64,000 bases of DNA from the human T2T-CHM13v2.0 reference genome, Homo sapiens. This document shows, in pieces, positions 17,301-23,300 of this stretch (within the stretch, counting starts at the first letter, position 1; every line of letters begins with the position of its first letter). The notes beneath the pieces are model-generated. The model was not told the DNA's origin. It ran no database searches and worked only from the letters and a program-made list of their open reading frames with translations. A program made the position numbers and the translations under genes. Location: the NCBI RefSeq assembly GCF_009914755.1, contig NC_060927.1. One strand, written 5' to 3'.

Positions 17301-20300
17301 GACCGCCGATGCTCCTTCCAGGCCATGGGGCGGAGGCAGGGCCCCTCGGCTGTGGTCTCGGAGAAGCACTGATGTGGCAGCAGGCTTACCATTCATCAGC
17401 ATTTCACACACGTTTACAAACACCCAGGTCCTGTGAGTGAGTGTCCACACCAGGCCCCAAAGCTCCCGCTTCCTTCTGGGCCCTAACTCACCCATCGCTC
17501 CATCTAGCCCTGACTGTCTCAGAGTGCGACCAGCACAGTCTTACTCAGCCTGAGCCCTTATCCAGAGCTGACCACCATTCCTCCAAGAGCTGGTCCACAG
17601 CCAGAATGGTGACCGCGCTGGCAGCTTTGCCCAGCTGGCCAGGTGGCTTTGAGGGGAGCCCACCTCCTGCCAAGCCTCTACCCTGAGCCAGCAGCTGCTC
17701 AGCCCTCAAGTTACCCAATTTCCTAGTCTCTCCCTGGCTCAGCAAAGGCGAGCCTCAGGATGGGGAACGAGACCACAACATCCCAGCTCCGCCGTTCAAC
17801 ACAGGCTGCTCTGAGCAACTTCCCTGTTTGCAGACCGCAGAGGCATGAGCGGAAAAGGCCAAATCACGGTAGCACAGAGGCTCTGGGGCCCTGGTATTTG
17901 CCATAAGAAAGTGTCAGGGGCACCATTTCTCCTTTTCTCTTGCTTTGAGAAGCCACACATCTGTAAATTATTCCAGGAAAGGGATGTTCTGGGGTCACTC
18001 CCTTTGGACCACAGTGTGGTCAGCATTTTTCAAGATGAGAACATCTCCACTTCTCTGGGCCATGCCCAAAGCCTCCCAAACACCTCCCCTCCAACCTATG
18101 CCCCTTCCCTATGCCCCTTCCTCCCACTAGAACTGGGAGTTTAGCTTCACGCCTCCTGGTTCAGTGCTGAAGGTTGCTGGGACTTTGTTGCCGTAGAAGG
18201 CTGGTGGACTTCCAGGAGCTATGGCAGGCCAGTGAATGGGACTCCAGGCCTGGGGCTTTTGTCAGCATCCTTGTGCCCATGCCGTGGTGGCAGGCTGGAC
18301 TCCTCACATCTTCCACGCCCCACCCAGTTGCTGAGACCTTCTCCCAATTCATCTCACCACCCCAAGCCCTCTCAAATATCTCCCAATCCATTTCCACTGT
18401 CCCTGCCTTGGCCCAGGCCACCTTCAGGTAATGATGGCCTCTTTCCCACCACACCTGCCCCTGCGACTGTATTCTCCATGCAGCAGCCAGAGGGCCAATT
18501 TAAAACAAACTGGCCGGCCGGGCGCGGTGGCTCACGCCTGTAATCCCAGCACTTTGGGAGGCCGAGGCGGGCGGATCACGAGGTCAGGAGATCGAGACCA
18601 ACCCCGCTAAAACGGTGAAACCCCGTCTCTACTAAAAATACAAAAAATTAGCCGGGCGTAGTGGCGGGCGCCTGTAGTCCCAGCTACTTGGGAGGCTGAG
18701 GCAGGAGAATGGCGTGAACCCGGGAGGCGGAGCTTGCAGTGAGCCGAGATCCCGCCACTGCACTCCAGCCTGGGCGACAGAGCGAGACTCCGTCTCAAAA
18801 AAAAAAAAAAAAAAAAAAAAAAACTGGCCAGGCACAGTGGCACATGCCTGTAGTCCCAGCTACTCGGGAGGCTGAGGCAGGAGGATCGCCTGAGCCCAGG
18901 AGTTCAAGATTACAGTGAGCTAGGGTCACACCACTGCACTCCAGCCAGGGCGACACAGCGAGACCCTTTCTCAAAGACAAAAAACCATAAACTGAGTCAT
19001 GGGGCTGCCCTGGACTCTGCCTCACCCAGGTTTACGGAGCTCCTGCACCCCAGCTGCCAGCCCCTCTCCAGCCTCCCCTCGGGCCACTGCCTGCCTTGTC
19101 ACACATTTGTTTTTACTTCTTTCCACTCCCGGCCTTTGCTTCTGCTGTCCCCTAGGCCAGGAGCACTGTCCTTGACCAATTCTCATGCATCCTTCAGGTC
19201 CCAAGTCAATGACCACCTCCCTCAGGAAACCACCTGGGGCCCCAGCCAGGATGCCCTGGGTTTCCTCAGAGGCTGGCATGGCCCGTTGTCTCCTGTGACT
19301 GCCCAGCCCAAACACTTGCAGACCAGAGTCCCTGCACACAGCTGCTCACGTGAGCCCAGCCTCTCAGGGCCAGGGCCCTTAGTCTCTGATTCCTGGGCAG
19401 CGGAGAAAGCCCTTGCGCTTGGTTAGAGAGGGTCATTTGGTAGCAACGTGGGAAAATGCTCAGAGCAGAGTGGTGGCTGGAGGTCCAGCCCCACGGTGCA
19501 TGGCTGGAGCCGGCATCGTGCCTGTGCCCATGAGTTGAGGATGGAGTCGCCGTGTCCTCCCAAGACAGCATCAGCTCTGTCATTTATTGTTTCTTTATCT
19601 TTAAACAAAAGGCAAAAGTGAGCACTAGGCTGGGAATCTGGGTTTAGTCCCTGGTTCACACCCTGTTCATGGATGAGATTGGGTAGCGGCCATGTCCTGG
19701 GCTTCAGTTTTCTCACCTGAAATGGGCTTGGGGGAGCAACGTGGCTAGATTCTCTAGTGTCAGAGGGTGTGGACTCAGAGCCTTCTGGGCCGGGCACATA
19801 AGGACTCGATGTGACATTAACAACTTGTAACAGACAGGTTTCACAGGGCCTTCCCCATCTGCACTGCATTCCCACTGAGCGCCCCCAGGGCATTCTGTGG
19901 ACCCCCAAAGAACTCAGCTCTGTGCCCAGAACCCTCTGCTTACTCTGACCCCTGAGCAGATGGGAAGTGGCAGCTGGAGGGGTGTGAGCCCTTGCAGCAC
20001 TGAGGACAGGGTCAGGACTGGGCGTGGGGTCCAGGCCCCTGACCACACCCTGCCTGTGGCCCCAGGTGCTGTTCAAAGGCTGTGATGTGAAAACCACGTT
20101 TGTCACTCATGTACCCTGCACCTCGTGCGCGGCCATCAAGAAGCAGACGTGTCCCTCAGGCTGGCTGCGGGAGCTCCCGGATCAGATAACCCAGGACTGC
20201 CGGTGCGGGCCACCCCTGTCCTTGCCTGTGTCCAGGAGCATCCTGTGGGGTGGCAGGGACTCGGGGAGCCTGACAGGCCCACAAAATGAGGAGAAGCACT

Positions 20301-23300
20301 CACTTATCCATGCCCCTGTGGCCCCACCTGGGTGGTGGAGATAGGCGGGGAGGAAGGGGTAAAGGCGAGGGGCAGGAGGGGTTTATGGGGCACCTGCTAT
20401 GTGCTAGGCCCTGTGCTCAGCTCTGGGCCAGGCAGAGCAGGGAGGTGGGTGGGAGCCCCGGAAGCCAATGTGGGGAGGCTGGGTGGGGGCTGTGCAAGGG
20501 AGCCTTTTCCATCACCCTGCCCACCCTCTGCCCCCAGCTACGAAGTACAGCTGGGGGGCTCTATGGTGTCCATGAGCGGCTGCAGACGGAAGTGCCGGAA
20601 GCAAGTGGTGCAGAAGGCCTGCTGCCCTGGCTACTGGGGTTCCCGGTGCCATGGTATGGGAGAAAGGGGGACCCCGCCTTGCGCCTCCCACCCAGCCCCA
20701 GCTCTGGGCAAGCCCTCTGCAGGAGCCACCTGCATTCCCCTTCAACTTGTTTGTTTAATTAATACTCACCGAGCGCCTCCAAGGCTCGGCCCCCTTGCTC
20801 TTGCTTCCTTGGGGGAGGGGCCGAGTCTGGGGTTGGCCAGAGCTGCTGGGGTCAGGGTAAGCGGAGGGTTCTGGGCACAGAGCTGAGTACTGTGGGGGTC
20901 CACAGAATGCCCTGGGGGCGCTGAGACCCCATGCAATGGCCACGGGACCTGCTTGGATGGCATGGACAGGAATGGGACCTGTGTGTGCCAGGTAAGGGCT
21001 GGGCAAGGTGGGGTGGAGGCTCAGAGGGGCCACGCTGACTTGGTGCATCCACCACCAGGAAAACTTCCGCGGCTCAGCCTGCCAGGAGTGCCAAGACCCC
21101 AACCGGTTCGGGCCTGACTGCCAATCGGGTGAGTGCTTAAAAGGCAAGAGGGCACGGCCAGCGTCCACCTGGGGGCCCACGCAGATGCAGTCCCTACAAC
21201 CAGCTCCCACCTGTCCCTTCAGCCTCTGTCCCAGCCCCTCAGATTTGCACATCCCTTTCAGGAACATGTGCTTTGTTTTATCACACCTCCAGCCCTTTGC
21301 ACATGCTACTCCCCTGAGAGGCCTTCTCCAGGAAGCCCTCTGTGAGCCCCAGGCCGGGCCAGTGCCTTCTGTGGTCTCCCACCACCCCTGTGGTCCCGCA
21401 TCACAGCTCTGTACTCTTAAGGTTGTACCTGCCCGAGCTGAGTTCTAAAAATACAGAGAGCAGGGACCCGATGTCCCAGTGTGTGCCTGGGAGAGGCTGG
21501 GGCCCCATCTGTCTCTGTGTGTCCCTCCCAGTGTGCAGCTGTGTGCACGGAGTGTGCAACCATGGGCCACGTGGGGATGGAAGCTGCCTGTGCTTTGCTG
21601 GATACACTGGCCCCCACTGTGATCAAGGTGAGCAGCGCCACTGGGATAGCCTAGGGCAGCAGGTCCCTGTGGCCAGAGCAAAAGAGGCCGACTGGGTGAG
21701 GATGGGGCCTGAGCCTCAGCAGGACCTCCGCCTGGAGCCTAGTTGGGGAAGGGGTGTCATCTGAGACCTCCACTGTCCAGAGGCCCAGCAAGGTCAGGGC
21801 CCTGCTCCAAGTCACACAGAACAGGCAAGGCCCCTTTGCCCCTGTGTTCCTCCCCAGCCTGGGCTTGGGCTCATCAGTGCTCTCTCCACTCTGTGCAGAG
21901 CTGCCCGTCTGCCAGGAGCTGCGCTGTCCCCAGAACACCCAGTGCTCCGCAGAGGCTCCCAGCTGCAGGTGCCTGCCCGGCTACACACAGCAGGGCAGTG
22001 AATGCCGAGGTGAGCCTGGACTCAGAGGCCAGGGACTTCAGCTCAGGGCGGGCGGGGGCTGGGAGAGCATCCTTTAACCCAGCAAGTGCAATGTAATTCA
22101 CAAGGAGGGAGAGCCATTCCTAAGGGGAGCCTATCCTCAAGGCCTAGGTCAACCTGCTGGCCCCGGCCTTCCTGGTGAAAGCTGTGGCGGAGACAGGGCT
22201 CCTGGGTGCTTGGCTCACTTGGGCTCTCTCTCTGCCCTGGCAGCCCCCAACCCCTGCTGGCCATCACCCTGCTCACTGCTGGCCCAGTGCTCGGTGAGCC
22301 CCAAGGGGCAGGCTCAGTGTCACTGCCCTGAGAACTACCATGGCGATGGGATGGTGTGTCTGCCCAAGGACCCATGCACTGACAACCTTGGTGGCTGCCC
22401 CAGCAACTCTACTTTGTGTGTGTACCAGAAGCCGGGCCAGGTGAGCCAGGGTCCCAGGCCGGAACTGTCCCCACAGTGCACCCAAACACTGGCTATGGGA
22501 CCCTGGGCAAGTCACAGGCCTTCTGGTAGCCTCAGTTTCCCCACTTGTAAAGTGGGGAGAGGATAAGGGTCCTCTTCAGGGAGGGGCTGAGCAGGGCTCT
22601 ATGGGTAGGGCAGACACCAGTGGTTCTTGGGGTTGGACGTGGTGTTCCCCTCCTGCCCTGTCGGGGGCCAGGCCTTCTGCACCTGCCGGCCAGGCCTGGT
22701 CAGCATCAACAGCAACGCTTCTGCGGGCTGCTTCGCCTTCTGCTCCCCCTTCTCCTGCGACCGGTCTGCCACTTGCCAGGTGACCGCTGATGGGAAGACC
22801 AGGTGAGCACAGGTGCCTGGGAGCAGAGACAGTGGGTTGGGCAAGCGTGCCCCCTGCGGGAAGGCGTGGGGGGTGCGGTGGGGGGGGCCTCAGCCTCCGC
22901 CCTGACTGGCTCTCCCTGGGAGCCCAGCTGTGTGTGCAGGGAAAGCGAGGTGGGGGATGGGCGTGCCTGCTACGGACACCTGCTCCACGAGGTGCAGAAG
23001 GCCACGCAGACAGGCCGGGTGTTCCTGCAGCTGAGGGTCGCCGTGGCCATGATGGGTGCGTGACCCCACTGCTTGCCCACGACCCGACCCCTCACCCCCA
23101 GCACAGTTGGCAGGGAGGGAGGAGCTGCCTCTGCAGATTCCAGTTTCTCTGCCCAGGGCTGTGGGAACAAACAGGTGGCTGTGGGGGGTGCATGCAGGGG
23201 GTGGGAGCTGCTCTCCAACCTCAAGGCCCCCATCTACCCTAAATCTAGGGAGAATACCCCCACCCCAACTCCCCCACACCAGGTCTGATGCCCGAACATC

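What the first reader, a model, noticed from the sequence alone, without database searches (positions are those of the whole stretch)
19878..20922. Non-repeat 75-nt inverted repeat that could sequester the STAB1 exon 4 acceptor and loop out exons 2-3
Seen: intron 1 nt 19878-19952 (ending 113 nt before exon 2) is the reverse complement of 20848-20922 at 71/75. Two of the four differences are U.G wobbles in RNA. Weaker in-register similarity continues on both sides (CACTGCAT/CATTGCAT; AGCAG after a 2-nt bulge). The downstream arm covers the putative branch point (GCTGAG), the AG at 20904-20905 and the first 17 coding nt of exon 4, so it is unique gene sequence rather than a transposon. Exons 2+3+4 total 339 nt between two phase-0 junctions, so splicing exon 1 to exon 5 is in frame (signal peptide kept, 113 aa removed). 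Established: complementary intronic sequences promote back-splicing and exon skipping, and long duplexes are ADAR substrates. Inference: this may be a cis-antisense splicing switch giving a 253-nt exon 2-3 circRNA, a delta2-4 isoform, intron 3 retention or editing of the acceptor A. It could equally be a neutral template-switch duplication.
Basis: partly seen in the sequence, partly recalled or inferred. Interest (0 to 1): 0.85.

Follow-up and report, generated by a model that had tools for sequence, protein, structure and literature searches.

The report
Inverted exon-junction copy inside STAB1 intron
About 85 bases spanning the start of STAB1 exon 4 were once copied backwards into intron 1, so the gene's RNA could fold into a very strong hairpin that hides a splice site, but nothing yet shows that this changes how the gene is used.

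Summary
Window 19878-19952 (STAB1 intron 1) is the reverse complement of 20848-20922 (end of intron 3 plus the first 17 nt of exon 4) at 71 of 75. With one 2-nt gap the homology runs 19875-19959 against 20843-20925.

The sequence has only these two copies in the 3.1-Gb genome, so it is not a repeat family. It is the only antisense exon-junction copy among the 69 STAB1 exons.

In silico the duplex dominates folding. Duplex energy is -182 kcal/mol against -53 +/- 12 for other STAB1 segments. Pair probability is 0.97 in 2.8 kb. The net gain is about -80 kcal/mol over scrambled arms. It would bury an acceptor that is already weak, 4th weakest of 68.

I found no evidence of function. No RefSeq isoform touches exons 2-4. 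No STAB1 circRNA or recoding site turned up in the texts and tables I could search. The 2 wobbles among 4 differences are what chance predicts.

Best reading: an old, probably primate-age, templated inverted duplication that is largely neutral.

The parts
19875..19959 (+). Upstream arm, in STAB1 intron 1. It is a reverse-complement copy of the intron 3/exon 4 junction (core 19878-19952). It ends 113 nt (core) before the exon 2 acceptor.
   Evidence: alignment; only two copies in the genome. E = 6e-29.
20843..20925 (+). Downstream arm, the source copy. It holds the last 63 nt of intron 3, including the putative branch point and the AG at 20904-20905, plus the first 20 nt of exon 4 (core 20848-20922).
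   Evidence: with exon borders from the hub table.
19862..19877 (+). Weak in-register extension of the upstream arm. It pairs with exon 4 nt 20923-20938 and matches at 9 of 16. Homology is uncertain.
   Evidence: 91 nt at 88%. (P about 0.007-0.026 for one flank); pair probabilities here are mostly near 0.
20066..20653 (+). The segment looped out by the duplex: exon 2 (20066-20202), intron 2, and exon 3 (20538-20653). The two exons together are 253 nt.
   Evidence: Hub table; (the duplex is the closing stem around this segment).
20886..20908 (+). Exon 4 acceptor region (positions -20 to +3). Pyrimidine content is poor. It is the 4th weakest of 68 STAB1 acceptors and lies entirely inside the duplex.
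   Evidence: 2.25 bits against a median of 8.46; 41% pyrimidine. (paired probability at least 0.999 at 20886, 20904, 20905 and 20906).
20882..20887 (+). Putative intron 3 branch site, GCTGAG, with the A at 20886 lying 20 nt before exon 4. It matches the yUnAy consensus at 4 of 5 positions. It is only putative.
   Evidence: Read. The consensus is recalled. Not tested.
20854..20862 (+). Donor-like site AGG|GTAAGC inside the downstream arm, not annotated. Its reverse complement gives the upstream arm a pyrimidine-rich, acceptor-like look.
   Evidence: 9.21 bits, above the median of annotated STAB1 donors, 8.38.

Best explanation
An 83-85-bp piece of STAB1 itself, made of the last 63 nt of intron 3 and the first 20 nt of exon 4, was copied in reverse orientation into intron 1, about 0.9 kb upstream. 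The likely cause is a replication or repair template switch, that is, a templated inverted insertion. The copy has since picked up about 5% divergence, which suggests an origin tens of millions of years ago, probably within primates.

The copy is mostly a neutral relic. When both arms sit on one pre-mRNA they can form a duplex of about 75-80 bp. That duplex loops out exons 2-3 and buries the weak exon 4 acceptor. The expected results are minor by-products, not a regulated switch. They are promiscuous A-to-I editing of the arms, some exon 2-3 back-splicing, and occasional failure to use the exon 4 acceptor.

Shown here: the duplication, its uniqueness, and the predicted thermodynamics and geometry. 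Inferred: how it arose, its age, whether the duplex forms in cells, and every RNA outcome.
For: Structure and origin:
- The core matches at 71 of 75, and gapped homology runs 19875-19959 against 20843-20925.
- Only the two copies exist in the 3.117-Gb genome, and the 766-nt intron 1 flank is otherwise unique.
- The downstream arm holds conserved EGF-domain coding sequence, so it must be the source.
- Of the 25 longest inverted-repeat pairs shown for the window, this is the only one outside the hub's masked-repeat intervals.
- It is the only antisense exon-junction copy longer than 22 nt among 69 exons.

Neutrality:
- All 4 differences lie in the intronic 58 nt, and the 17 exonic nt carry none. 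That fits a constrained source and gives no sign that pairing is preserved. Zero changes in 17 nt has P = 0.30.
- 2 wobbles among 4 differences has P = 0.41 under random substitution.
- No RefSeq transcript (8 listed) changes exons 2-4 (hub table).
- STAB1 is absent from a blood-cell circRNA table that does list the neighbouring gene NISCH.
- STAB1 is absent from the held supplements of a GTEx-wide recoding catalogue that lists FLNA 125 times.

Ability to form:
- Duplex energy is -182.1 kcal/mol, against a mean of -53.2 (SD 11.9, best -93.5) for 1139 other STAB1 segments.
- The duplex is the closing stem in both the minimum-energy and centroid folds of 1201 nt.
- Mean pair probability is 0.97 in 2801 nt.
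- The net gain is -79 to -83 kcal/mol against 4 scrambled-arm controls.

Mechanism class:
- Inverted repeats of about 30-40 nt are enough for circularisation (abstract, PMC4201285).
- Long-range complementary regions obstruct splice sites, lower inclusion of looped-out exons, flank circRNAs and are enriched in editing sites (passages, PMC8052449).
- Template switching creates hairpin-forming inverted copies in one step (abstract and passages, PMC5453318).
Against: - There is no outgroup sequence, so insertion, age and neutrality are inferred from only 4 differences. The 95% range is 1.5-13.7% divergence, about 6-137 Myr depending on the rate used. The mutation rates are recalled values.
- An 85-nt fragment copied from 0.9 kb away is larger and further off than the short local events catalogued by Loytynoja and Goldman.
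- The negative literature evidence is weak. Supplements may be cut. STAB1 is expressed in few cell types. One catalogue was closed and one was uninformative.
- A duplex this stable over a weak acceptor of a constitutive exon could well have a measurable effect. That could be selected for or against.
- The folding is at equilibrium in silico. It ignores co-transcriptional splicing, bound proteins and helicases.
Confidence: 0.6

Rival explanations
1. Functional cis-regulatory RNA structure. The intron 1 arm is kept because pairing with the exon 4 acceptor tunes STAB1 output or isoforms. Possible outcomes are the in-frame delta2-4 isoform, exon 4 skipping leading to a premature stop and decay, a 253-nt exon 2-3 circRNA, or an enforced order of intron removal.
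For: - The duplex is predicted to form with probability 0.97 and to bury the branch region, the AG and the start of exon 4.
- The exon 4 acceptor is the 4th weakest of 68, and the exon 2 and 3 donors are weak to middling.
- The arms lie 113 nt and 195 nt from the exon 2 acceptor and the exon 3 donor. That is the geometry known to favour back-splicing.
- Delta2-4 is in frame. Skipping exon 4 alone, or retaining intron 3, gives a premature stop.
- It is the only such element among 69 exons.
Against: - No annotated isoform affects exons 2-4 (hub table).
- No STAB1 circRNA was found.
- The substitution pattern gives no sign that pairing is preserved.
- Complementary regions in general avoid looping out exons.
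- Very stable hairpins can inhibit circularisation (abstract).
Confidence: 0.15
2. A DNA relic with no RNA consequence. In cells the duplex essentially never forms, because intron 1 is removed or coated by proteins before the downstream arm appears about 0.9 kb later, or because helicases resolve it. Splicing, editing and circRNA output would then be unaffected.
For: - STAB1 exon 4 is constitutive in all listed transcripts (hub table).
- No recoding site or circRNA was found.
- Before the partner arm is transcribed, the upstream arm is already engaged in local structure in the nascent-transcript fold.
Against: - The thermodynamic gain over alternative folds is about 80 kcal/mol.
- Only about 900 nt separate the arms. 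From recalled knowledge, that is seconds of transcription and shorter than typical intron-removal times.
- Long intronic duplexes are in general edited and affect splicing.
Confidence: 0.2
3. A variant private to this assembly or this individual, or an assembly artefact, and not a fixed feature of human STAB1.
For: Only one human assembly could be examined. No other assembly or population data were available.
Against: - The arms differ at 4 of 75 positions plus a 2-nt gap. A very recent copy would be near-identical.
- One difference looks like CpG-to-TpG decay in the copy, at 19937. That fits a long residence in the genome.
Confidence: 0.04

Closest known systems
Intronic complementary sequences (inverted Alu pairs and non-repeat reverse-complementary matches) flanking circularised exons. 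Liang and Wilusz 2014, PMC4201285, abstract read. Jeck 2013, Zhang 2014 and Ivanov 2015 are recalled; Ivanov is not held.
   Same: Two arms lie in the introns on either side of exons 2-3, close to the exon 2 acceptor (113 nt) and the exon 3 donor (195 nt). They are far longer than the 30-40 nt reported to be sufficient.
   Different: The sequence is not a repeat element. The downstream arm runs across the next acceptor into exon 4, so it would block a splice site as well as loop out exons. No back-splice junction is documented.
[quoted passage not shown] Kalmykova et al. 2021, PMC8052449, abstract and passages read.
   Same: It is a long-range intramolecular pairing in a pre-mRNA that loops out exons and covers a splice site. 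In that catalogue these features go with lower exon inclusion, circRNA borders and A-to-I editing.
   Different: PCCRs are defined by evolutionary conservation of both arms. This intron 1 arm is probably young, and its conservation could not be tested. STAB1 was not found in the 3 held supplementary files, and the full catalogue is not among them.
Template-switch mutations. Loytynoja and Goldman 2017, PMC5453318, abstract and passages read. FoSTeS/MMBIR and templated insertions are recalled.
   Same: A nearby sequence is copied as its reverse complement, which creates hairpin potential in a single step without selection.
   Different: The copied fragment (about 85 nt) and the distance (about 0.9 kb) are larger than the short local clusters that study targeted (fragments of at least 10 bp close to the mutation cluster). 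The ancestral state was not seen.
Editing-site complementary sequences (ECS) that pair an intron with an exon for ADAR, for example the GRIA2 Q/R site (recalled, not from a call).
   Same: An intronic sequence is complementary to exonic bases and forms a duplex that spans a splice junction.
   Different: The arm lies upstream, across two exons. No editing is known. STAB1 is absent from the held supplements of the recoding catalogue PMC8897444.

Membership tests
Interspersed repeat or transposon terminal inverted repeats | Many dispersed copies in the genome | tested here: not met
   A whole-genome search with the 91-nt arm and with a 766-nt flank found only the sequence itself and its inverted partner. 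The arm lies outside the hub's masked intervals. Caveat: the tool skips very common words.
circRNA-flanking complementary sequences | Complementary arms of at least 30-40 nt in the two introns that flank the circularised exons | tested here: met
   The arms are in intron 1 and in intron 3/exon 4 around exons 2-3 and match at 71 of 75. They are predicted to pair.
circRNA-flanking complementary sequences | An observed back-splice junction (exon 3 donor 20653 to exon 2 acceptor 20066) | tested here: inconclusive
   'circSTAB1' occurs in 0 papers. There is no STAB1 row in the held blood-cell circRNA supplements. One catalogue was closed and one was uninformative. No read data were available.
PCCR (conserved long-range pre-mRNA structure) | Both arms lie in evolutionarily conserved regions | not testable with these tools
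   No other vertebrate genome is held. The own-genome search states that it has no relatives here.
PCCR (conserved long-range pre-mRNA structure) | A stable complementary duplex within one gene | tested here: met
   -182.1 kcal/mol against -53.2 +/- 11.9 for controls. Net gain about -80 kcal/mol.
Template-switch mutation or templated inverted insertion | The new sequence is the reverse complement of a nearby template | tested here: met
   The template lies 0.9 kb downstream in the same gene.
Template-switch mutation or templated inverted insertion | An outgroup or ancestor lacks the copy while the flanks stay collinear | not testable with these tools
   No primate or other mammal sequence was available.
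ADAR editing-site complementary sequence | A-to-I editing at the paired exonic adenosines | tested here: inconclusive
   0 papers hold STAB1 with 'A-to-I' and 'editing site'. STAB1 is absent from 3 held supplement files of PMC8897444, where FLNA occurs 125 times. The files may be cut, and intronic editing is not covered.
Known structured RNA family (Rfam) | A match at the family's gathering score | tested here: not met
   Window 19000-21800, both strands: 4 matches, all far below gathering score (E 0.037-0.86), and none on the arms.

The most novel reading that the evidence does not exclude
The intron 1 arm is a primate-specific 'lock' that the gene made from its own exon junction. By pairing with the weak exon 4 acceptor, it would make intron 3 removal wait for the removal or unwinding of intron 1. 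When it is not resolved, for example under low helicase or ADAR activity or fast elongation, it would divert transcripts to a 253-nt exon 2-3 circle, an in-frame delta2-4 receptor lacking the first 113 mature residues, or decay-prone exon 4 skipping. This would give macrophages and sinusoidal endothelium a structure-based dial on stabilin-1 output.
Probability: 0.1. Interest if true: 0.7.

Novelty: new member of a known kind. Interest (0 to 1): 0.38.

Why it matters
STAB1 (stabilin-1, also called Clever-1) is a scavenger receptor of macrophages and sinusoidal endothelium with immunological and clinical interest. That description is recalled, not taken from a call.

If the duplex forms in cells, it would be a clean, non-Alu test case. 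It would show how a pre-mRNA copes with a near-perfect 75-bp helix over a constitutive but weak acceptor. It would also show how a single template-switch mutation can create splice-regulatory or circRNA-forming structure from nothing.

Variants in either arm, including deep-intronic ones in intron 1, could then alter STAB1 splicing.

If it is neutral, it is still a useful dated example of a long templated inverted insertion built from an exon junction.

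Tried and rejected
- **Chance match:** rejected.
- **Repeat family or transposon:** rejected.
- **Known RNA family:** none found.
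- **Selection for pairing, judged from the wobble count:** no signal. 2 of 4 has P = 0.41.
- **Extension of homology to 19862/20938:** only 9 of 16 match and the pair probabilities are near zero, so it is left as uncertain.
- **An in-frame alternative acceptor at the end of the upstream arm:** my first reading of the position was wrong. The AG is at 19958-19959, so the extension would be 106 nt and out of frame, and the site did not pass my acceptor score. Dropped.
- **Translatable rolling-circle ORF in the 253-nt circle:** there are stops in all three frames.
- **Literature searches:**
  - 'circSTAB1' occurs in 0 papers.
  - STAB1 + circRNA + 'host gene' gave 7 papers. I read passages of two, and neither concerns a STAB1 circRNA.
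  - STAB1 + 'hsa_circ' gave 10 papers. I saw the listing only and opened none.
  - 'stabilin-1' + 'splice variant' gave 66 papers, 15 listed, none opened, so no claim is drawn from them.
  - STAB1 + 'A-to-I' + 'editing site' gave 0 papers.
- **Supplement look-ups for STAB1:**
  - PMC7359566: 0 occurrences in 1 file.
  - PMC6789028: 0 in 4 files, with NISCH present once and PBRM1 absent, so the table is not exhaustive.
  - PMC10744075: 0 in one 3-kb file.
  - PMC8052449: 0 in 3 files.
  - PMC8897444: 0 in 3 files.
  - PMC5660143: none of three gene names found, so it is uninformative.
- **Closed or unavailable:** Ivanov et al. 2015 is not held.
- **Not attempted:** a check of the STAB2 paralogue, because 95% identity that includes intron sequence rules out an origin before the STAB1/STAB2 split. 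Cross-species dating, because no vertebrate genome other than the window's own is held.

Full report
**1. The observation**

The sequence and the repeat finder show an inverted repeat with arms 19862-19952 and 20848-20938. It is 91 nt long, 88% complementary, and the arms are 895 nt apart.

The four differences are:
- 19908A/20892G and 19911A/20889A, which do not pair.
- 19937U/20863G and 19944U/20856G, which are G.U wobbles in the + strand RNA.

A gapped alignment and a BLAST search of the genome with a 766-nt query both put the homology at 19875-19959 against 20843-20925, with one 2-nt gap. The further 16-nt extension matches at only 9 of 16. That has P about 0.007-0.026 for one flank, and its predicted pair probabilities are mostly near zero. 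I leave it as uncertain.

Chance is excluded. P is about 2e-34 per register. BLAST gives E = 6e-29 in the window and E = 4e-25 in the genome.

**2. What it is**

The 91-nt arm has exactly two places in the 3.117-Gb assembly: itself and its inverted partner. The 766 nt of intron 1 around it are otherwise unique. The tool warns that very common words are skipped.

Among the 25 longest inverted-repeat pairs within 10 kb that the tool showed for the window (64 found), the other 24 all have arms inside the hub's masked, Alu-sized intervals. This pair alone does not.

I searched all 69 STAB1 exons, each with 70 nt of flank, against the opposite strand of the window. There were 5 hits at E <= 1e-3. 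Four are 19-22 nt long. The fifth is this one.

The downstream arm contains the exon 4 acceptor and the codons for E-C-P-G-G-A of an EGF-like module. It must therefore be the original, and the intron 1 arm is the copy. So the element is an inverted micro-duplication of the intron 3/exon 4 junction placed in intron 1. No Rfam family matches at its gathering score.

**3. Age and origin (inferred)**

The divergence is 4 in 75, or 5.3% (5.5% after Jukes-Cantor correction). The Poisson 95% range is 1.5-13.7%. Using recalled rates of 0.5-1.2e-9 per site per year, the point estimates are 23-55 Myr and the outer limits about 6-137 Myr. An origin within primates is likely but not shown.

All four differences lie in the 58 intronic nt and none in the 17 exonic nt. 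Zero in 17 has P = 0.30, so this carries no weight. Position 19937 looks like CpG-to-TpG decay in the copy.

Template switching during replication or repair makes such reverse-complement copies in one step (PMC5453318, abstract and passages). This fragment is longer, and its template further away, than the short events catalogued there.

No other vertebrate genome is held here. The ancestral state, the insertion boundaries and any covariation could not be examined.

**4. What the RNA could do (in silico only)**

- Duplex energy for the 99-nt arm regions is -182.1 kcal/mol. For 1139 other 99-nt windows of the STAB1 pre-mRNA the mean is -53.2, the SD 11.9 and the best -93.5. The arms folded alone give -26.6 and -44.1.
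- The duplex is the closing stem of both the minimum-energy and the centroid structure of 19800-21000.
- In a 2801-nt partition function the 75 cognate positions have a mean pair probability of 0.97. 72 of 75 exceed 0.9, and 73 of 75 are paired in the minimum-energy fold. Positions 20886, 20904, 20905 and 20906 are paired with probability at least 0.999.
- Replacing the upstream arm with reversed or shuffled versions (4 controls) costs 79-83 kcal/mol in a 2001-nt context.

I built a leave-one-out weight matrix from STAB1's own 68 acceptors. It is a rough, home-made measure. It ranks the exon 4 acceptor 4th weakest: 2.25 bits against a median of 8.46, with 41% pyrimidine in -20 to -4. The exon 2 and exon 3 donors score 5.6 and 7.1 against a median of 8.4, and the exon 4 donor is strong at 11.7.

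The likely branch region of intron 1, a CTGAC about 23 nt before exon 2 (read; consensus recalled), lies outside the duplex.

The geometry is therefore as follows. The exon 2 acceptor and the exon 3 donor are free and brought close together. The exon 4 branch region, AG and first 17-20 nt are buried.

**5. Consequences by frame**

- Joining exon 1 to exon 5 (delta2-4) stays in frame. It keeps the 26 residues encoded by exon 1 and removes 113 aa.
- Skipping exon 4 alone shifts the frame to an early stop.
- Retaining intron 3 (252 nt) reads into a TGA inside the downstream arm.
- The 253-nt exon 2-3 circle has stops in all three frames.

**6. Evidence for or against use**

The hub's RefSeq table lists 8 STAB1 transcripts, and none has a variant exon in the exon 2-4 region.

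Text searches are listed under Tried and rejected. 'circSTAB1' gave 0 papers. The other STAB1/circRNA co-occurrences I opened were irrelevant. Ten further listings were not opened. STAB1 with A-to-I editing gave 0 papers.

In supplements, STAB1 is absent from a blood-cell circRNA table that lists NISCH. It is also absent from the held files of a GTEx-wide recoding catalogue that lists FLNA.

These are weak negatives, for three reasons. The files may be cut. STAB1 is restricted to few cell types. The most relevant catalogue could not be opened.

The wobble pattern gives no evidence that pairing is preserved.

**7. Comparison with what is known**

The element works like the intronic complementary sequences that drive back-splicing. 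Repeats of 30-40 nt suffice, yet very stable hairpins can inhibit (PMC4201285, abstract).

It also works like long-range complementary regions, which obstruct splice sites, lower inclusion of looped-out exons, border circRNAs and attract editing (PMC8052449, passages). That same paper notes that such structures tend to avoid looping out exons. This argues that a fixed element of this kind is either tolerated because it is ineffective or is under some cost.

It differs in three ways. It is not a repeat. It derives from the gene's own exon junction. It spans an acceptor. Membership of the conserved class (PCCR) cannot be tested here.

**8. Verdict**

The mechanism class is well known, and nothing I could reach shows function.

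My estimates are:
- About 0.6 for a largely neutral, old templated inverted duplication that yields at most minor RNA by-products.
- About 0.2 that the duplex has no RNA consequence at all.
- About 0.15 that it is a selected splicing or circRNA element.
- About 0.04 that it is a variant private to this assembly or an artefact.

Interest is moderate. It is a clean and easily testable case, but not a new kind of system.

Noticed in passing
window 18643-18811 and 25948-26116 (also 16306-16482 against 18643-18819): An Alu-sized masked repeat late in STAB1 intron 1 is inverted relative to one in the intron after exon 18 (169 nt, 83%). It is also inverted relative to another repeat inside intron 1 (177 nt, 85%). 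These pairs would compete with, or add to, any looping driven by the unique arms, and could support a larger exon 2-18 circle.
   Followed up: no
window 20854-20862: An unannotated donor-like site AGG|GTAAGC lies inside intron 3, 48 nt before exon 4. It scores above the median of real STAB1 donors (9.21 against 8.38 bits). Acceptor-like sites at 20696 and 20702 lie upstream of it, so a cryptic exon of about 155-160 nt is conceivable.
   Followed up: no
window 19869-19891: The reverse-complement copy gives intron 1 a strong acceptor-like site, with a putative exon start at 19889 (11.0 bits, as good as the real exon 2 acceptor). It is not annotated as used.
   Followed up: no
window 36447 and 40752: The acceptors of STAB1 exons 44 and 58 score even lower than exon 4 in the in-gene matrix (-1.8 and -1.7 bits, 35% pyrimidine). 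Several STAB1 exons therefore rely on unusually G-rich acceptors.
   Followed up: no
window 20413-20429 against 20874-20890; 20699-20715 against 20829-20845: Short 17-nt, 88% complementary matches link intron 2 and the early part of intron 3 to the region of the downstream arm. They share a CAGCTCTGGGC-like motif that also occurs in the upstream arm. They are probably chance, but they could compete for pairing.
   Followed up: no
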